A DNA stretch of 41,075 nucleotides from a virus (lineage: Duplodnaviria > Caudoviricetes). A program made the position numbers and the translations under genes. Below are positions 1,496 through 24,779 of this stretch, in pieces. Where the stretch lies: positions 1 through 41,075 of the IMG/VR virus record IMGVR_UViG_3300037721_000036; one strand, written 5' to 3'. Position 1 is the stretch's first letter; each line of letters starts with the position of its first letter. The notes beneath the pieces were generated by a model. That model saw nothing but the letters and a program-made list of their open reading frames with translations. It was not told where the DNA came from and made no database searches.

Positions 1496-1632
1496 CTCCC
1501 CGGTGGGGGGTTGATTGCCCGCCGGGCTCTGCCTACTCCCCGGACGATCCGGGGTACGGCTTTACGTGGTTCGCGCGTGTGGCCCGGCTCGAACGGGCAA
1601 CCGGCCTGACGACCGGGCACAGGCGCCGCACA

Positions 1633-3102
1633 CTAGGCGCGGACGGCGAGCTGAACGAACGGGCTCAGCGATGCGCTGTTGTTCTTCGGCGTGATGGCGG
1701 ACTGGATCCACGGCCGGCCGTCGACGCGCTGGATCACGCGGTACGCGGTCAGGTCGTTACCGAACTTGTAGTGCGAGCTGGACTCGGCCGTCATGGTCTG
1801 CCGGTCCCCGATGAGGTACATGCCGGGGTCGACAAACGACAGGTCGCCCTGCGAGCCGACCACGCCGGGCGCCTTTTCCGTCATGATGACCGGGCGGCCA
1901 AGCAGGGTCAGTTGCGGCGCGTTGTGCGCGTCGGTCAGCCACACCGCCGACCCACCGGTACCCACGGCAAGAGCCATGGTGGCAAGCTCGCTGAACACGT
2001 CCGGCGAGGCCAGCCAGATAGCGCGGCCCAGGCTGGAGGGCAACATCCGGGAGTACATCTCGATGACGTTCTCCCACACGACGGTGGCCGCCGTCTGGCC
2101 GGCCTCCTTCGCGATGGTGATCAGTGCGGCGTTCGTGGTCGACAGGATACCGAGCGGCTCGCCCACCCCGGACCCCGAGATGAACGCAAGGTCCTCGTAC
2201 CAGGCGACGGCCTCGGGGAAGATCTCGTCCAGGAACGTGCCGAGGCCGCCCCAGTCGTTCACGAGCTCGTTGGGAACCTCGGCGTACGCCGTCAGCTTCT
2301 TGGCCTCCAGAGTGACCCGCCCGAAGGTGGCCTGCGAGGCGGTGAGTGCCGCGCCTTCGGCCGTCCAGTACGCGACCACGCCACCGAAGACGCTCGACAC
2401 GTTGCTACTGCTGTCCAGCGTCGGGAAGCTGAGGCGGAGCGAGCCCATCGGCACGACGCGGGCACGCGGGCGCATGATGGCCGTCGCCAGCGAGACGCGC
2501 AGGATCTCGGAGCGAATCTCCTCGGGCACGAGGAAACCACCCTCGGAGGGGATCTTCTCCGACCAGTTGCGGACCTTCGTGAAGCGCTCGCGCGCCTCCT
2601 TGGTCACATGGCCGTTGGTCACGTTGTGCGGCGCGATGTCCTGGAAGAAGGTTGCCTTGTCCTGGTACACGCCATTGCCGACGACCCCGACCGCGTGCGG
2701 ACTGTTGAGCTTGTTCACCTTGTCCCACGCGGCGGTACCCGGCGCGGTGGTCGGATCACCCAGGTCCAGGCGCGGCAGGTCCACCTGGTTGTCTTTCAGC
2801 CACTGGGTCAGCGTCTTGTTCGTCTCGTCACGCACCTGCGCGAGGATGCCCGGATCGGCCGCCGCCCGCTTGGCCGCGTACGCCTTGATGAATTCCGGGA
2901 ACGTCCCGTCCTGGATACGGGCCATGACCTTGGTCGCATCGTTCAGTTCGTTTTCCAGGCCCTCGGTCGTGTCCGGGATCTGGGCGGACGGGACGTCCAA
3001 CTCCTTGGGCGGCGCCGCGCGGTTGACGACCGGGCCGCCATGGGTCTGCATGTGGTGGGTCAGCGCGCGACGCTGCCAACCGGGAAGGTGAGAAGTGTTC
3101 AC
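1633..3102 (-). CDS. Major capsid protein, HK97 fold
   Basis: SEGGFLVPEEIRSEIL, YWTAEG, FGRVTLEAKKL, LLGRPV and RVDGRPW are typical of HK97-family capsids. GTG at 3102 overlaps the upstream TGA (GTGA). Confidence 0.95.
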   Translation of the reverse strand: MNTSHLPGWQRRALTHHMQTHGGPVVNRAAPPKELDVPSAQIPDTTEGLENELNDATKVMARIQDGTFPEFIKAYAAKRAAADPGILAQVRDETNKTLTQWLKDNQVDLPRLDLGDPTTAPGTAAWDKVNKLNSPHAVGVVGNGVYQDKATFFQDIAPHNVTNGHVTKEARERFTKVRNWSEKIPSEGGFLVPEEIRSEILRVSLATAIMRPRARVVPMGSLRLSFPTLDSSSNVSSVFGGVVAYWTAEGAALTASQATFGRVTLEAKKLTAYAEVPNELVNDWGGLGTFLDEIFPEAVAWYEDLAFISGSGVGEPLGILSTTNAALITIAKEAGQTAATVVWENVIEMYSRMLPSSLGRAIWLASPDVFSELATMALAVGTGGSAVWLTDAHNAPQLTLLGRPVIMTEKAPGVVGSQGDLSFVDPGMYLIGDRQTMTAESSSHYKFGNDLTAYRVIQRVDGRPWIQSAITPKNNSASLSPFVQLAVRA

Positions 3103-7614: not shown

Positions 7615-7654
7615 GCGTGCAGGCTAGCCGACCAGCCTGCCGTGATCCGTACCG

Positions 7655-7743
7655 TGGACCTGGCGGGACTCGAACCCGCATTCTCCCCACCGGATAGGCC
7701 GGCACCCCGAGGCGCTCTACCGAGGAATCGCAGGGACCGGCCC
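7655..7743 (-). ncRNA. Degenerate tRNA-like element upstream of terL
   Basis: Perfect T-arm GCGGG-TTCGAGT-CCCGC followed by CAGGTCC-A, pairing with 5' GGGCCGG (1 mismatch, 1 GU). D-loop-like CTCGGTAGAGC. No canonical anticodon arm. Confidence 0.45.
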
Positions 7744-7803
7744 ATGCATTGACCGGTCCCATCCCATTGAGCCACAGGCCCATGCCTGACTAGCGGTCAG
7801 GCG

Positions 7804-8025
7804 TCACTCGCAGACATCCCATTCGGATGCGGGAACGATGCGTCCCGGCGAGTCCGACTGCGTGTGTTCGATGATCACAATCGGGTCGGCCGCCCAGATG
7901 TGGCGCGCGTCCAGGTAGTCGCGGACGTCCGCGAGCGTGCCCCGTACGAGATCGTCCTGGTGGTAACGAGCGCCGCCGGGGATCATCTCGGTGTACTGGA
8001 CCCGGTACCTTGCTGTCTCACTCAT
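7804..8025 (-). CDS. Hypothetical protein (73 aa), probably leaderless, own promoter
   Basis: ATG lies 6 nt after a TAGGCT -10 box. Confidence 0.7.
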   Translation of the reverse strand: MSETARYRVQYTEMIPGGARYHQDDLVRGTLADVRDYLDARHIWAADPIVIIEHTQSDSPGRIVPASEWDVCE

Positions 8026-16471: not shown

Positions 16472-16551
16472 GGTGTCCGGGCAGGGAAGTGCCCCCACGT
16501 CGACCGACCGACTGGGGGCGTGGGAACCAACGATCTCAAGGAGATAGCTCC

Positions 16552-17418
16552 ATGACAGAGCTTACGCCATACGTCTTCCCCGGCAACGGGGGCAGGGTTC
16601 AAACCGTCATGATCGACGGCGAGCCGTGGTTCGTGCTGGCGGACTTGTGCAAGATCATCGGCATCGCCAACCCGAGCATGGTGGCCGATCGGCTAGAGCC
16701 ATGTGACATCAGTTCAACTGAGGTCACATCCATCGATGCGTCAGGGCGTAGCCGAAAGACCCAGACCATGACCATCGTGTCCGAATCGGGCATGTACGAC
16801 GTGATCATGGGTAGCCGATCCAAGCAAGCGCAACCGTTCCGACGCTGGGTGACGGCGGAAGTTCTGCCCTCGATCCGTAAGACCGGTAGCTACTCGATCG
16901 GACAGGAAGAGCCAGCGAAACCAGAGAACGTGATTGATGCCAACATCGCATGGATGCAGCGAGCTACCGACTCTCTGCGAGACCTGGTGGCGGACCAACG
17001 CGCGCAGGGGTACGAGCTTGTCATGGTCCGGGAAACCTTGACGACCACGGTCAAGCGGATGGATACCGTCGAAGGCACCGTGTCCGACGTCGCTGATCGG
17101 GTCGCCAACGTGGAGGCCATCACGCCGTTGCTTGACAGCGAGAATCTGCTGGCGCTGCGCGACGTCGCGCACGCATGCGGCACCGGACAGAACCGGATGG
17201 CAAACCTGTTGGTAGACAACGGCATTCTATTCAGGGATCACGTGAGCGGCCTACGCGCATACCAGCCCTGGATCGAGAGCAAGTGGGCGATCAGTCGATA
17301 CGAGGAGCGGCAGAACCGCTCAGGATGGTCATGGGTCACATACTTCACGCCTGCCGGCATGACCAGACTCCGACGTCTCGGCATCGTTCCGCCGACCGCC
17401 CAGAAAAGCGCGCCATGA
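16552..17418 (+). CDS. BRO-N / KilAC antirepressor-like protein
   Basis: BRO-N motifs IDGEPWFVLADLCKIIG, IVSESGMY and FRRWVTAEVLPSIRKTGSY. C-terminal LRDVAH...AYQPWIE...YFTPAG is KilAC-like. AAGGAG SD. Confidence 0.9.
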   Translation: MTELTPYVFPGNGGRVQTVMIDGEPWFVLADLCKIIGIANPSMVADRLEPCDISSTEVTSIDASGRSRKTQTMTIVSESGMYDVIMGSRSKQAQPFRRWVTAEVLPSIRKTGSYSIGQEEPAKPENVIDANIAWMQRATDSLRDLVADQRAQGYELVMVRETLTTTVKRMDTVEGTVSDVADRVANVEAITPLLDSENLLALRDVAHACGTGQNRMANLLVDNGILFRDHVSGLRAYQPWIESKWAISRYEERQNRSGWSWVTYFTPAGMTRLRRLGIVPPTAQKSAP

Positions 17419-17997: not shown

Positions 17998-18278
17998 CGT
18001 ACCGCCCGGTCCGCTCAGCCGCTCGGCGCTCAGCCGGTGCCGGGAAGCCCGGTCCACACGTACACGGCGCCGGCAGCGATGACCTGGTGGTACGCGAGGC
18101 CGTCAGCGCCTGCCGCCAACCCGTCCCGGTACGCATCCGGCACCCGGCGGTCACCCCGGCGGAAACGCGGGCCGTGGTGGAGCTGGTCGGCCGTACCGTG
18201 TCGGCGGACGCCATCGCGTACACGCTCGGCGTGGCCGCCCGGACGGTGCAACGTCACCGGGCCCGCTTGCACCCCTAA
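17994..18278 (+). CDS. HTH DNA-binding protein (94 aa)
   Basis: C-terminal SADAIAYTLGVAARTVQRHRAR is an HTH motif. Confidence 0.7.
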   Translation: MTYRPVRSAARRSAGAGKPGPHVHGAGSDDLVVREAVSACRQPVPVRIRHPAVTPAETRAVVELVGRTVSADAIAYTLGVAARTVQRHRARLHP

Positions 18279-19093: not shown

Positions 19094-19387
19094 ATGACGA
19101 AGACAGCGGCACTCAGCAAGGCCCAGATCAAGACCCTCCGGACGCTGATCGCCCGTGGTGGCGAGATGAACGGCTACGCCGGGCAGCCCGGTTTCTACTG
19201 CAACAGCAAGCGACCCCTGGTCACCGCAGGCATGGTCGAGCACGTGACCCAGTGCGACGGGTGCGCGGAGCATGGCTACTACGCCGAGCAGTGCGTCCGC
19301 CCCCTGGCAGGCCAGAAAGGCGGGAACGCCTGCTACGGCCGAATCCGCATCACCGAAGCGGGCCGCGCGGCGATCGAGAACGCCTGA
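19094..19387 (+). CDS. Hypothetical Cys-containing wHTH-like protein, probably leaderless
   Basis: LSKAQIKTLRTL...PLVTAGMVE...IRITEAGRAAI resembles a wHTH with a Cys-rich insertion. Confidence 0.7.
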   Translation: MTKTAALSKAQIKTLRTLIARGGEMNGYAGQPGFYCNSKRPLVTAGMVEHVTQCDGCAEHGYYAEQCVRPLAGQKGGNACYGRIRITEAGRAAIENA

Positions 19388-20661: not shown

Positions 20662-22383
20662 GTGAGCGAGATCCTGAAGCTACGCGACTACCAGCGCGGC
20701 GCCATCGACGCCCTGTACACCGGCTGGAACGACGGCCGGGGGCGCCTGGCGGTGGTGCTCCCCACCGGAGCAGGCAAGACGGTGGTGTTCGCGCACCTGG
20801 TCGCCGAACATGTGGCCAACCACCCCGGCGAGCGGGTCATCGTGCTCGTGCACACGGACGAACTGGTCAGCCAGGCCGCGCGCAAGCTGCACGACGTGGC
20901 GCCGCACCTGTCGGTCGGCATCGTCAAGGCGGCACGCAATGAGGTTCACGCGCAGGCCATCGTCGCCTCCGTGCAGTCGCTGCGTAACGAGCGCCGGCGC
21001 AACTTGATCAAAAACGTGGGTCTGGTGATCGTGGACGAGTGCCACCATGCCACGGCCCAGACGTACAAGACGATCATGGAGCACTACGGCTGTTACGGCG
21101 GAGCGAGCGTGCGGACGGCGGGCTTCACGGCCACGCTGAGCCGGGGCGACCGGGGCGACCTGTCCAAGGTCTGGGACGGGGTCGCGTACCGCAAAGACAT
21201 CGCGTTCATGATCCGCCAGCGCTACCTCGTGAACGTCCGGGGCAAGCGCATCGAAGTCGATGACCTGGATCTCGCCAAGGTCAAGCAGCGTGGCGGGGAC
21301 TACGGCTCCAGCGAGCTGGGCGAGGCACTGGAAGCCAGCCTTGCGCCGGAGACGGTCGCCAAAGCGTACATCGAGCACGCGGCCGACCGGTCGGGGATCC
21401 TGTTCGCCCCCACCGTCAGTGCCGCCTACGCGTTCGCTGACGCACTCGCTGAGCAGGGCGTGAAGGTGGAGACCGTGCACGGCGCGCTGCCCACCGAGGA
21501 ACGTCGCGCCATCCTGCGCAGGCTCGCGGACGGGACGACACAGGTGGTCGCCAACTGCATGGTGTTGACCGAAGGATTCGACTCCCCGCGCGTGTCCTGC
21601 GTGGTCGTGGCCCGGCCGACCAGGCATGCCGGGCTCTACCAGCAGATGGTGGGCCGTGGCCTGCGCGTGGACCACACCCGACCGTGGCAGGCACAGGACT
21701 GCCTCATTCTCGACGTGGTGGGCGTGTCCGCGCTGCACGGGCTGGCGAGCCTGGTGGACCTGACCGAGAAGCCGGTCCGGCGGCCCGGCGATGACGATTC
21801 GCTGATCGATCTTCTTGACGAACTGGAGGAGGGCGACGGACCGGGCGAGGCCCCCGACTACATCCATCACGGCCCGGTCAAGGCGGTGGATTTCGACCCG
21901 CTCGCCGGAGCATCCAAGCTGGTCTGGGGCCGCACGCCCGGCGGCGCGTACTTCCTGTCGGCCGGCATCGGGCCGGAGGCCGTATACGTGTTCATCCTTC
22001 CCGCCGTGGCGTTCCAGCAGCCCGAGGGCTACACGGTCGAGCCGGACACGTTCGACGTGTCCTGGTGCACCAAGAACGCCTACCAGAGCATCGGCGGCCA
22101 CCGTGGCGCCTTCACCGCGCACCGGGGCGTACCACTGGAGACGGCGTTCGCGTGGGGCGAGGACGTCGCCCAGGACATGACCCCTTTCGGCAGCGTCAAC
22201 ACGCTGACCAAGAGCGCGTCATGGCGCCGCACGCCGCCCAGCCAGGCCCAGCGCGACCTGTGCCGCTCGCGGGGGATCGACATCCCCGAGGGCGCCAGCA
22301 AGGGCGACGTGTCCGTGCTGATCGACGCGCACATGGCCACCCAGCGGATCGACCCGATCGTGAAGGCGCTGAGCGCCCGATGA
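20662..22383 (+). CDS. Superfamily 2 DExH helicase
   Basis: LRDYQ, PTGAGKT, DECHH, GFTAT, LTEGFD and QMVGRGLR motifs. Confidence 0.95.
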   Translation: MSEILKLRDYQRGAIDALYTGWNDGRGRLAVVLPTGAGKTVVFAHLVAEHVANHPGERVIVLVHTDELVSQAARKLHDVAPHLSVGIVKAARNEVHAQAIVASVQSLRNERRRNLIKNVGLVIVDECHHATAQTYKTIMEHYGCYGGASVRTAGFTATLSRGDRGDLSKVWDGVAYRKDIAFMIRQRYLVNVRGKRIEVDDLDLAKVKQRGGDYGSSELGEALEASLAPETVAKAYIEHAADRSGILFAPTVSAAYAFADALAEQGVKVETVHGALPTEERRAILRRLADGTTQVVANCMVLTEGFDSPRVSCVVVARPTRHAGLYQQMVGRGLRVDHTRPWQAQDCLILDVVGVSALHGLASLVDLTEKPVRRPGDDDSLIDLLDELEEGDGPGEAPDYIHHGPVKAVDFDPLAGASKLVWGRTPGGAYFLSAGIGPEAVYVFILPAVAFQQPEGYTVEPDTFDVSWCTKNAYQSIGGHRGAFTAHRGVPLETAFAWGEDVAQDMTPFGSVNTLTKSASWRRTPPSQAQRDLCRSRGIDIPEGASKGDVSVLIDAHMATQRIDPIVKALSAR

Positions 22384-23429
22384 CCACCACCACCGAGGAA
22401 GAGGCACCCGTGGCAGCACCAGCAACAGAGGACGTGTTCGGCACCCCACCGGATCGCACGTACGGCACCGACGACGGCCGTACGCCGTACGTGCGGAACC
22501 ACCGGTACCGGCTGTTCGATCCGGGTACCAACCGGGCCGTCACCGTGACCCGCGTATCCACGTTCGCGAAAGCCATCGCGGACATGCGTGGTCTCAACCT
22601 GTGGCAGCAGCGGATGATCGTGCACGGGATCGGACAACGGCCGGACCTGTACGCGCTCGCCGTGACCACGCCCCTGGACGACACCCAGACGCTCCAGTCG
22701 GTGGCCAGCGACGCGCAGCAGGCCGCCAAGGCGCGCGCCGGGGCCAACATGGGTACGGCCATGCACAACCTCACCGAATCGGTGGACCGGGGCCAGGACA
22801 TCAGCGCCGTGCCGGCGGACTGGCAGGCCCGAGCGAGGGCGTACCGGCAGGCCCTGGACGACCACGGGTTCGACATCGTGCCCGACATGATCGAACGGTA
22901 CGTGTACGTCAAGGATTTCGGTGGGCTCTGTGGTCGGTTCGACCGGCTGCTACGGCGCCGCTCGGACGGGATGCTCGTGGTGGGCGACGTCAAGTCGAGC
23001 GCCAACATCGGGTACTCCTGGGGCGAGATCGCGATCCAGCTCGCGCTGTACGCCCGGGCGTCGCATTTCTGGGACAAGGCTCGTGACGAGTGGGTGCCCA
23101 TGCCCCCGGTCGACCACCAGCGCGCAGTGGTCATGCACACCGAGCTGGACGCGGGAACCACCACCATCTACCCGGCCGTCGACATCGCCGAAGGATGGTA
23201 CGGCGCGCAGCTCTGTGCGTCGGTGCGGGACTGGCGCTCGCGCGGGAAGACGCTGTGCGGTCCGCCCGCCCAGGCCGGCGGACCGACACCGGCCGAGCGG
23301 CTGGAACGGGCACTGTCGGTGGCCGAGCTCTCGGCGGTGTGGGCCGAGCTGCACCCGCGCGGGGAGTGGACGCCCGAGTTGCAGGCCCTCGGTATGGCCG
23401 CCCAGGCGCGTATCCGGGGCCGGACGTGA
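22380..23429 (+). CDS. PD-(D/E)XK exonuclease (RecE/Cas4-like)
   Basis: RVSTFAK, GTAMH, E-(x)-GRFDRL..VGDVKS and QLALYA. Confidence 0.85.
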   Translation: MTTTTEEEAPVAAPATEDVFGTPPDRTYGTDDGRTPYVRNHRYRLFDPGTNRAVTVTRVSTFAKAIADMRGLNLWQQRMIVHGIGQRPDLYALAVTTPLDDTQTLQSVASDAQQAAKARAGANMGTAMHNLTESVDRGQDISAVPADWQARARAYRQALDDHGFDIVPDMIERYVYVKDFGGLCGRFDRLLRRRSDGMLVVGDVKSSANIGYSWGEIAIQLALYARASHFWDKARDEWVPMPPVDHQRAVVMHTELDAGTTTIYPAVDIAEGWYGAQLCASVRDWRSRGKTLCGPPAQAGGPTPAERLERALSVAELSAVWAELHPRGEWTPELQALGMAAQARIRGRT

Positions 23430-23861: not shown

Positions 23862-24229
23862 TGAAGCGATTGACGACATGGGCACTCCTGGTGGGCCTGG
23901 TCAGCGGTCCGATCATCGGACTCGCGCTACCCGGTCCGCACGGCGACGTGGCGCCGCCCACGGACGCGGCCACGCGGGCCGTCTGTACGGCCGTGGAGGG
24001 CCTCGCGGGCGATCCGGGCACCTGGGTAGCCCCCTGGCGCTACGTGGACGCCACGCTCGACGTGAAGGACCTTCCGGCCAGCGTGGCACGCGAGCGCCTG
24101 ACGGCGCTGCTGTCGGCCGCCCACCGGGCGGAATTCGCCCAGCGTCGCGACACTCCCGACGTCAAGACCCGCCGGGCAGAGCTGGCCACGGCGGTGGCCA
24201 GCGCGCTGCGCGCGTGCGGGTCGGCTTGA
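23858..24229 (+). CDS. Secreted or membrane-anchored hypothetical protein
   Basis: Signal-peptide-like N-terminus; two Cys; GGAGG SD. Confidence 0.65.
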   Translation: MMKRLTTWALLVGLVSGPIIGLALPGPHGDVAPPTDAATRAVCTAVEGLAGDPGTWVAPWRYVDATLDVKDLPASVARERLTALLSAAHRAEFAQRRDTPDVKTRRAELATAVASALRACGSA

Positions 24230-24253
24230 CACCTGGTAGGTACCTGGTAGGGT
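24226..24253 (+). promoter_or_regulatory. Variant promoter/operator upstream of the ncRNA array
   Basis: TTGACA-N16-TAGGGT with CTGGTAGGTACCTGGTAG. Confidence 0.65.
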
Positions 24254-24259
24254 TGCAGT

Positions 24260-24745
24260 TGTCCGGGCGGCATCCCGGACCGGCCCGCACTCACGGGAAG
24301 CATGCCGGCAAACCCGTGACGGGACGGGGTCGGACGCGAGACTCATACTCTCCGTCCGACCGGGTGACTGGGATACCGGTGTTTCGCGGCGCCGGACCGG
24401 GGTTCGACTCCCCGGCACCCACGCAGGACTCGCACCCAGACGGTAGTACGGGCGCGAGCGTCAGCGGACGAAACGGGCAGGCGGCACTGATCACCCGCCG
24501 GGACGTGGGTCGCGGTTGGCACCACGGGCGGACCGGTGGTCATACCATCAGCTCCCTGGACTCGCGTAGCCGGTCCGCCCACCACAACTCCACACGCCCC
24601 TGCGCCGTCTAAGTAGCGTTTGTCATACGTGAGGCGGATTTCCTGCCCGTTCGAGTCGGGCCAGGGGCACGGCACGCTGGTCGGGCGAGAGTCGCACCCG
24701 ATGCACTGGGTCGGTCAGGACCCGTCGTCCGCCAGCGTGACCACC
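24260..24745 (+). ncRNA. Array of structured, tRNA-like RNAs
   Basis: No convincing ORF. Back-to-back hairpins and cloverleaves, two canonical T-arms, and three stems closed by ACCA (see findings). Confidence 0.65.
24596..24669 (+). tRNA. Atypical tRNA, possibly Asp(GTC)-derived, with reduced D-arm
   Basis: Acceptor GCCCCTG/CAGGGGC+A; T-arm GCCCG-TTCGAGT-CGGGC; 7-nt loop TTGTCAT on an imperfect stem; 74 nt. Confidence 0.5.
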
Positions 24746-24779
24746 GATTCCAGACGTCCCGAGAGAGGACACGGAAACC

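What the first reader, a model, noticed from the sequence alone, without database searches (positions are those of the whole stretch)
24226..24745. Promoter-driven array of tRNA-mimic RNAs (T-arms and ACCA-closed stems)
Seen: a TTGACA/TAGGGT promoter is followed by ~500 nt without a credible ORF, tiled with structured units. (a) Hairpin 24328-24361, whose apical GAGA/TCTC stem carries the 7-nt loop CTCATAC, like a CAU anticodon loop. (b) 24362-24421: GGGTG/CACCC-A stem, stemless D-loop-like segment and a CCGGGG-TTCGACT-CCCCGG T-arm, reminiscent of the tmRNA tRNA-like domain. (c) 24460-24524: weak GTCAGC/GTTGGC stem plus ACCA. (d) 24526-24584: continuous 12-bp helix GGGCGGACCGGT/GCCGGTCCGCCC plus ACCA, the length of an acceptor+T minihelix. 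(e) 24596-24669: near-tRNA with perfect acceptor and T-arm, GTC loop and reduced D-arm. (f) 24673-24743: CACGCTGG/CCAGCGTG plus ACCA enclosing two hairpins (71 nt). Inference: one precursor is cut by host tRNA-processing enzymes into several non-canonical tRNA mimics. These could act as decoys for anticodon nucleases or tRNA-end-modifying toxins, or as ligands for synthetases, RelA or SmpB. None is a clean decoding tRNA, so standard annotation would probably miss most of the locus. This is the best candidate for an undescribed system here.
Basis: partly seen in the sequence, partly recalled or inferred. Interest (0 to 1): 0.88.

Follow-up and report, generated by a model that had tools for sequence, protein, structure and literature searches.

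The report
Phage RNA cassette with tRNA-shaped caps
A gene-free 520-base stretch of an uncultured sediment phage holds anticodon-less tRNA look-alikes that the host's tRNA-trimming enzymes likely cut and cap into long-lived small RNAs, and the same look-alike sits where the abundant, unexplained early RNA of mycobacteriophage L5 ends.

Summary
The array is real and non-coding. Units a, b, d, e and f are confirmed; c is no better than chance. T-arm units occur at the same place in 5 of 55 relatives. Across 28 hand-picked units the acceptor helix, T-arm and a purine-C tail are kept while the anticodon part is free. Actinobacterial tRNA genes have that C in 41 of 41 cases. This is what tRNA-maturation enzymes read, not what ribosomes read. 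A relative's unit is nearly identical to an unannotated unit of mycobacteriophage Twister. The matching L5 unit ends at 51,133, beside the published, terminator-less 3' end of the abundant Pleft RNA (PMC5712189). Best reading (0.6): inferred cut-and-cap signals that yield stable RNAs. A decoy role is possible (three UCAUAC loops) but untested, and CCA-ended helices are not enriched in relatives. No RNA data exist for this phage. This scan noted the L5 link before on other DNA (e1-9739586, e1-5854071).

The parts
24226..24253 (+). Promoter-like site (-35 TTGACA, 16-nt spacer with AGGTACCT palindrome, -10 TAGGGT); start predicted near 24260
   Evidence: related promoter family at 18267+, 19059+, 26454+, 8502-, 8060-; a promoter-like site at the same place in 14 of 26 relatives tried
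24261..24319 (+). Two 5' hairpins (7 bp each)
   Evidence: z -2.5
24328..24361 (+). Unit a: 13-bp hairpin with 7-nt loop CUCAUAC (CAU anticodon-like), abutting unit b with no spacer
   Evidence: (z -5.9)
24362..24422 (+). Unit b: tRNA top-half unit with an 11-bp acceptor plus T helix, discriminator A24421, C24422; predicted 3' cut-and-cap signal
   Evidence: hit at 24362-24424 (E 1.2e-4) by a model built without window sequence
24429..24458 (+).
   Evidence: z -2.9
24460..24524 (+). Unit c: weak stem followed by ACCA; not supported as a unit
   Evidence: z -0.08; pair probability 0.03
24526..24584 (+). Unit d: 12-bp helix plus encoded ACCA; 31-nt loop containing UCAUAC; no T-loop
   Evidence: (z -3.4)
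24596..24670 (+). Unit e: 7/5 tRNA top half without a D-arm, discriminator A24669, C24670; middle contains UCAUAC
   Evidence: the same 26-nt 3' part occurs in 2 other viral records
24673..24743 (+). Unit f: long helix plus encoded ACCA, 3 nt after e; an unrelated helix plus GCCA stands at the same place in L013
   Evidence: (z -3.5)
24756..24770 (+). Small hairpin over the ribosome-binding site, identical in L013
24780..25304 (+). Downstream gene, putative single-stranded-DNA-binding-like protein (function not established)
   Evidence: homologues follow the exonuclease in 55 related loci; no Pfam hit; atlas lead to phi29 SSB only 0.88
22380..23429 (+). PD-(D/E)XK exonuclease used as synteny anchor
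7654..7780 (-). Third tRNA-like unit, with a 46-nt D-loop insert and no normal anticodon loop, just before the terminase gene
1576..1633 (-). Fourth T-arm unit (5/5), directly after the major capsid stop codon; a unit at the same place in G005
   Evidence: missed by the model

Best explanation
The stretch is a non-coding leader with two anticodon-less tRNA top-half units (b, e) and two CCA-ended helices (d, f), which host tRNA-maturation enzymes likely cut and cap, so that one early transcript would yield several long-lived RNAs and a separately processed ssb-like mRNA. Shown: the structures, their conservation pattern, and their position relative to the published L5 RNA end. Inferred steps: (1) transcription starts near 24260. 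(2) The host tRNA 3' nuclease cuts after the discriminator or after C74 of b and e, and the CCA-adding enzyme completes the end, which blocks exonucleases. (3) RNase P cuts 5' of the 7/5 unit e and probably of d and f, which it would hold by their encoded RCCA since they have no T-arm. (4) b, with an 11-bp top half and no single-stranded leader, is probably cut poorly at its 5' side and stays on as the 3' cap of a roughly 165-nt RNA carrying hairpin a. (5) f may remain as a protective 5' hairpin on the ssb-like mRNA. What the released RNAs do in trans is not settled; soaking up a host factor that reads CAU anticodon loops is the leading guess.
For: 64 T-arms in 130 sequences against 1-11 in 10 shuffles. 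In 28 hand-picked non-redundant units, acceptor closure scored 6 or more in 19, against a permutation mean of 4.0 and maximum of 10. N73 was a purine in 27 of 27 closed units and C74 was present in 26 of 27; the top half was 12 bp in 17, 11 in 8 and 10 in 2; the middle was free. Host actinobacterial tRNA genes have C74 in 41 of 41, including all 25 without encoded CCA. S. coelicolor adds CCA to 53 of 65 tRNAs and cuts encoded CCA between the Cs (PMC4681348, passages). A mycobacterial tRNA-like Y RNA module is cut by RNase P and gains CCA, and a 7-bp acceptor is the determinant (PMC4201824, passages). Unit L013b equals the Twister unit in 12 of 12 5' and 23 of 25 3' bases. Such a unit closes the Pleft non-coding region in 14 of 14 L5-like phage ends fetched (12 by script, 2 by eye), with compensatory changes in 10 of 19 pairs among 6 of them. 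The L5 unit spans 51,226-51,134 with C74 at 51,133. The abundant L5 RNA ends at about 51,140-51,190 with no terminator and a more than 90% drop downstream, and the non-constructible deletion 51,195-51,407 removes the unit's 5' strand while the viable one does not (PMC5712189, sections 7, 10, 11). Units also follow the capsid gene in the window and in G005, and follow ssb-like genes in relatives.
Against: No processed end has been mapped for this phage or for any unit. The L5 end is known only to about 50 nt, and Dedrick et al. report that the smaller RNAs share a 5' end, which does not show release of the unit. Only 5 of 55 relatives have a T-arm unit in the exonuclease-ssb gap, so the array is accessory. 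NCCA after helices is not enriched in relatives (3 of 71 against a shuffle mean of 1.3). The whole leader folds only modestly better than shuffles, and e's acceptor is disfavoured in the full ensemble. Chargerpower keeps only 1 of 5 T-stem pairs and Rebeuca 3. Window unit b matches Twister only in architecture and the 3' part (5 of 12 and 18 of 25 bases). The host of this phage is inferred from GC content and protein relatives.
Confidence: 0.6

Rival explanations
1. The released RNAs are mainly trans-acting decoys for host tRNA-targeting defences or toxins: CAU loops for anticodon nucleases, CCA ends for end-modifying toxins. Processing is only the means of making them.
For: TCATAC occurs three times; any AT-rich 6-mer occurs three times in only 5 of 2000 shuffles. 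It differs from the host tRNA-Met loop CTCATAA at one base. A free 7-bp hairpin with loop TTCATAG follows a T-arm unit in L008. Module content varies between phages like accessory genes. The L5 RNA is very abundant and toxic (PMC5712189).
Against: The hexamer has a clean 7-nt-loop register only in a. CAU stem-loops are not enriched across loci (8 stem-loops read CAT; many other triplets are commoner). No defence partner is known. The conserved features are those of processing, not of anticodons.
Confidence: 0.18
2. The units are C4/CI-type antisense RNAs, cut out by RNase P, whose UCAU loops pair with AUG starts of the phage's own leaderless genes.
For: Loop a can pair 6 nt with the start of 7804-8025(-), e 8 nt (one G-U) with the start at 19094, and d 9 nt with the exonuclease start. 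An antirepressor gene is present. C4 RNA is an RNase P substrate (PMC11143913, passage).
Against: The pairings are short and weaker than many chance matches. In relatives with UCAU loops (L008, L030, L031) they do not exceed 4-5 nt, read by eye from the starts listed. No Rfam C4 match.
Confidence: 0.08
3. This is a decaying tRNA gene cluster with no current role.
For: There is a continuum from normal tRNAs near this place (L105, L018, L072) through expanded-anticodon forms to D-less units. Most relatives lack the array.
Against: Acceptor, T-arm and C74 are kept with compensatory changes while only the decoding part varies. Random decay would not spare these, nor keep the unit at one position in 14 of 14 L5-like ends.
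Confidence: 0.09
4. The features act as DNA (attachment-site remnants or an origin), not as RNA.
For: About 16 of the 64 T-arms in relatives look like attP-type tRNA 3' fragments (read by eye).
Against: No tyrosine or serine integrase family match in the genome. The window's units have their own paired 5' strand and lie on the sense strand behind a promoter. Their 3' parts match the host tRNAs tested in at most 19 of 26 bases.
Confidence: 0.05

Closest known systems
Pleft early non-coding RNA of Cluster A mycobacteriophages L5, D29, StarStuff (Dedrick et al. 2017, PMC5712189; sections 7, 10, 11 read, passages of one supplement)
   Same: About 500-nt non-coding region behind an early promoter and ahead of the first gene; ends in an 11-bp tRNA top-half unit with purine-C tail (shown here); L5 RNA is processed into smaller stable species.
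   Different: The window has two T-arm units, two CCA-ended helices and CAU loops, precedes an ssb-like gene, and shows no BLAST match to any isolated phage. The paper does not describe a tRNA-like structure (0 occurrences of 'tRNA-like').
mascRNA/menRNA and plant mitochondrial t-elements (tRNA-like processing signals; mechanism recalled, t-element wording from note e1-6129308)
   Same: Anticodon-less top half used as a cutting signal; weak Rfam mascRNA match on unit b (18 bits, E 0.86).
   Different: Eukaryotic; the match is far below the family cut-off of 42.5 bits; here the unit appears to cap the upstream RNA.
Polycistrons of irregular tRNAs and allo-tRNAs (Mukai et al., PMC5389517, passages)
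   Same: Runs of non-canonical tRNA-like units from soil and sediment, some not used in translation.
   Different: Those keep cloverleaves with anticodon arms and 8/4 or 9/3 branches and lie near toxin-antitoxin genes; these are 6/5 or 7/5 with a free middle, in phage leaders.
Phage non-tRNA RNase P substrates: P1/P7 C4 antisense RNA, M3 RNA (PMC11143913, passage); T4 RNAC/RNAD of unknown function (PMC9697503, passage)
   Same: Phage small RNAs shaped for the host tRNA-processing machinery; a helix plus RCCA is a known RNase P handle.
   Different: No family match and no convincing antisense target.
Bacterial Y RNA YrlA (PMC4201824, passages) and the tmRNA tRNA-like domain
   Same: T-arm and acceptor mimicry; mycobacterial YrlA gains CCA after RNase P cleavage.
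   Different: No Ro60/TROVE gene, no Rfam match, no G3-U70 in window units.

Membership tests
Canonical decoding tRNA | Cloverleaf with D-arm and 5-bp/7-nt anticodon arm, detected by ARAGORN or Rfam RF00005 | tested here: not met
Canonical decoding tRNA | T-arm with TTCRANY loop stacked on a 7-bp acceptor | tested here: inconclusive
   met by e (7/5), not by b (11 bp in all)
L5-type Pleft early non-coding RNA | About 500-nt non-coding region behind an early promoter | tested here: met
   (promoter predicted, not mapped)
L5-type Pleft early non-coding RNA | tRNA top-half unit of the same build | tested here: met
   a model from Twister, Blinn1, Rebeuca, ResDef and six relative units, without window sequence, hits L5, D29 and window b; only the T-stem was modelled as pairs
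L5-type Pleft early non-coding RNA | Sequence homology over the whole region and position at the right genome end | tested here: not met
   no blastn match; here the region precedes an ssb-like gene
L5-type Pleft early non-coding RNA | Very abundant, stable, processed RNA | not testable with these tools
   no RNA holder listed
tmRNA tRNA-like domain | G3-U70 alanine identity and tag reading frame | tested here: not met
   b has G3-C; ARAGORN finds no tmRNA
YrlA Y RNA | Adjacent Ro60 (TROVE) gene and Rfam family match | tested here: not met
C4/CI antisense RNA | Loops complementary to target sites in the phage's own transcripts | tested here: inconclusive
   6-9 nt pairings only, not extended in relatives
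mascRNA/menRNA | Rfam RF01684 gathering score | tested here: not met
   18 of 42.5 bits
RNase P / CCA-adding enzyme substrate | Cleavage at the helix 5' end and CCA addition | not testable with these tools
   needs in vitro or in vivo end mapping

The most novel reading that the evidence does not exclude
Actinophages run an interchangeable RNA-cassette system: tRNA-shaped caps let host enzymes cut one early transcript into stable RNA 'genes', among them free CAU-anticodon loops that decoy tRNA-Met-cleaving defences. The essential, toxic L5 Pleft RNA is a member of the same system.
Probability: 0.2. Interest if true: 0.88.

Novelty: new variant of a known kind. Interest (0 to 1): 0.62.

Why it matters
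Dedrick et al. left open how the 3' end and the stability of the most abundant early RNA of L5 and D29 arise without a terminator. A conserved, unannotated tRNA top-half unit ending at 51,133 offers a precise answer that can be tested in a cultured phage. The same units occur in uncultured actinophages in early leaders, after ssb-like genes and after the capsid gene, and they escape ARAGORN and Rfam (0 of 14 and 0 of 10 loci). The window shows an unusually rich array and is a candidate for RNA cargo acting on the host. A tRNA-shaped 3' cap could also serve as a tool for stabilising RNA in actinobacteria.

Tried and rejected
blastn of the region against isolated phages: no match. Single-protein locus searches with the ssb-like gene and the exonuclease: nothing. 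The ssb alignment was too diverged to search with. Sequencing runs: no RNA holder listed; one DNA run is probably the source, and the second holds a 0.05 share with no piece over the array. ARAGORN with introns and lowered thresholds gave mostly noise. A pattern search for the L030/L031 helix returned only those two records. A family joining unit d with L023, L030 and L031: no consensus with mis-set coordinates and only -2.9 kcal/mol with corrected ones, so it is not claimed. General enrichment of NCCA-ended helices or CAU stem-loops in relatives: not found. Model R1 contained window b, so its hit there was not counted. Two of five seeds were out of frame and added nothing. Integrase, serine recombinase and TROVE: absent. 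A 6S-like promoter mimic (UCAUAC equals the template strand at two leaderless starts) was considered and left aside: U33 and purine-37 of an anticodon loop predict the same letters.

Full report
Setting. The window is a complete 41,075-bp virus record with terminal repeats and 67.5% GC, held by a sediment metagenome run. It encodes capsid, portal, terminase, primase-polymerase, helicase, exonuclease and an antirepressor, and no integrase. Its exonuclease has 26-33% identity to those of Gordonia, Streptomyces, Corynebacterium, Nocardia and Mycobacterium phages (30 of 712 records listed), so an actinobacterial host is inferred, not shown.

Observation. In 2000 shuffles of the 523-nt leader, two T-arms never arose, two RCCA-ended helices arose 5 times, and any AT-rich hexamer in three copies arose 5 times. 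Units a, d and f fold far better than their shuffles; b and e modestly; c not at all. The whole leader has z -1.64. In the full ensemble a, b, d and f pair as drawn, while c and the acceptor of e have probability 0.03. ARAGORN and Rfam miss the locus. Two more tRNA-like units lie elsewhere in the genome, before the terminase gene and right after the capsid stop.

Relatives. An alignment of 24 exonucleases fetched 73 viral, 58 metagenomic and 5 genomic loci. In 55 of them the ssb-like gene follows the exonuclease. In many the two genes are adjacent; several have a promoter and one long helix; 5 of 55 (L002, L008, L013, L030, L037) have T-arm units in the gap. Over 130 sequences (141 loci plus window, 12 duplicates dropped) there were 64 T-arms against 1-11 in 10 shuffles. 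I kept 28 for counting and dropped near-identical family members, about 16 attachment-site-like fragments, two chance-like hits and three canonical tRNAs of L105; the 28 include four window units and several near-canonical tRNAs. Acceptor closure scored 6 or more in 19 of 28 (permutation mean 4.0, maximum 10 in 1000). N73 was a purine in 27 of 27 closed units and C74 was present in 26 of 27, while the part between acceptor and T-arm varied from about 12 to over 90 nt. In 41 tRNA genes from the 30 best loci of two actinobacterial genomes, C74 was present in all, including 25 that do not encode CCA. The phage units therefore obey the host's tRNA 3'-end rule while giving up the anticodon arm. The closest relative, L013 (ssb-like protein 49% identical), has the same layout at the leader's end: T-arm unit, A-CGG, a helix followed by RCCA, and an identical hairpin over the ribosome-binding site.

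Against generalising. In 29 hand-delimited segments, 19 of 71 outer helices were followed by purine-C (shuffle mean 9.2, maximum 13) but only 3 by NCCA (mean 1.3, maximum 4). CAU stem-loops with A37 and 4 or more pairs were found four times: window a, L008, L040 and a real tRNA in L105. A family for unit d could not be established.

Link to cultured phages. The L013 leader hit an unannotated stretch of mycobacteriophage Twister, with 12 of 12 identical 5' bases and 23 of 25 identical 3' bases, and Twister hit L5 at 51,131-51,158. I fetched 14 right-end regions chosen from these hit lists; several had matched through other parts of the region, and the label Cluster A for those not named in PMC5712189 is recalled. 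All 14 end their non-coding region in a top-half unit: 12 found by script, Blinn1 and Lilbunny by eye. All have purine-C after it; Chargerpower has a broken T-stem. A mid-genome Connomayer locus showed none. Among 6 aligned units, 10 of 19 predicted pairs show a change on both sides. ARAGORN found 0 of 14 and Rfam 0 of 10. A model built from 10 units without window sequence found L5, D29, window 7653-7708, window b (E 1.2e-4) and e (E 0.016), and missed the post-capsid unit. Dedrick et al. (PMC5712189; sections 7, 10, 11 read) report a roughly 500-nt, very abundant, stable, toxic RNA from Pleft, processed to 100-400-nt species and ending near 51,140-51,190 without a terminator; they call the origin of the 3' end unclear. 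The L5 unit runs 51,226-51,134 with C74 at 51,133, which is also where their probe A primer, placed near the end of the RNA peak, begins. Their non-constructible deletion removes the unit's 5' strand; their viable one does not. I reached this link. One search then showed that other agents of this scan had noted it on other genomes, which is not independent evidence. Notes seen had already suggested processing signals and moved my reading away from pure decoys.

Mechanism. RNase P measures the acceptor plus T helix and pairs with the 3' RCCA (PMC11143913, passages). Streptomyces adds CCA to most tRNAs and cuts encoded CCA between the Cs (PMC4681348, passages), whereas RNase Z generally cuts after the discriminator (PMC10673834, passages), so the exact cut could be after N73 or after C74. 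A mycobacterial tRNA mimic is cut and gains CCA in vivo, and a 7-bp acceptor matters for RNase P (PMC4201824, passages). I infer that b and e are cut and capped at their 3' ends; that e, d and f are cut 5' by RNase P; that the T-arm-less d and f need encoded CCA because CCA-adding enzymes read the T-loop corner (recalled); and that b stays attached to hairpin a as a 3' cap. Units after the capsid and ssb-like genes fit a stabilising cap on the upstream RNA. None of these steps has been observed for this phage.

Purpose of the cargo. The three UCAUAC loops may be decoys (0.18) or antisense to leaderless starts (0.08); the pairings are 6-9 nt in the window and 4-5 nt in relatives. Neutral decay (0.09) and a DNA role (0.05) fit poorly.

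Novelty. Ten paper searches listed no paper describing these units or a tRNA-like end of the Pleft RNA. The library lacks most subscription papers. I read only passages of PMC5389517, PMC7609411, PMC9697503, PMC10986025, PMC4626039, PMC10690425 and bioRxiv 10.1101/2025.11.21.689395. The supplements of PMC10690425 (not opened) and of the preprint (closed) could bear on novelty. Verdict: a real feature, a new variant of tRNA-like processing elements and of the L5-type early RNA; interest 0.62.

Noticed in passing
window 7654-7780 (-): tRNA-like unit with a 46-nt D-loop insert and an extended, anticodon-less arm, directly upstream of the terminase gene; the only Rfam tRNA hit in the genome.
   Followed up: partly
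window 1576-1633 (-); L176:11419-11471: T-arm unit starting at the major capsid stop codon in two phages; candidate stabiliser of capsid mRNA.
   Followed up: partly
window 18267+, 19059+, 26454+, 8502-, 8060-: Five-copy phage promoter family (TTGCA-17 nt-TAGGCT) with a shared spacer motif; two copies appear to drive leaderless genes (19094, 8025).
   Followed up: partly
L028:9852-9922: Top-half unit after the ssb-like gene has a G3-U70 pair and discriminator A, i.e. alanine identity as in tmRNA.
   Followed up: no
L008:10386-10406: Free 7-bp hairpin with loop TTCATAG, a clean CAU anticodon stem-loop, just after a T-arm unit.
   Followed up: partly
L030:7640-7695 and L031:5098-5156: Shared helix with a UCAUGA/GCUGUA internal loop and a compensatory 3-bp change; found in only these two viral records.
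   Followed up: partly
L003:6013, L004:5502, L005:6257: Top-half units in the leader of the helicase gene rather than the ssb-like gene.
   Followed up: partly
L024, L030, L037, L043, L045, L046, L122 (0.4-1.9 kb after the exonuclease): tRNAs with normal acceptor, D and T arms but an anticodon arm replaced by long or branched helices.
   Followed up: partly
L061:6890-7300; L067:10450-10740: Long run of short GC-rich repeats (GGCA-type) directly after a minimal 40-nt T-arm unit.
   Followed up: no
L138:1499-1571 (-): Unit nearly identical to e in acceptor and T-arm, in a viral record, between two small genes and not near an ssb-like gene.
   Followed up: partly
window 16489-17418 (+): BRO-N/KilAC antirepressor gene in a genome with no detected integrase.
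   Followed up: no
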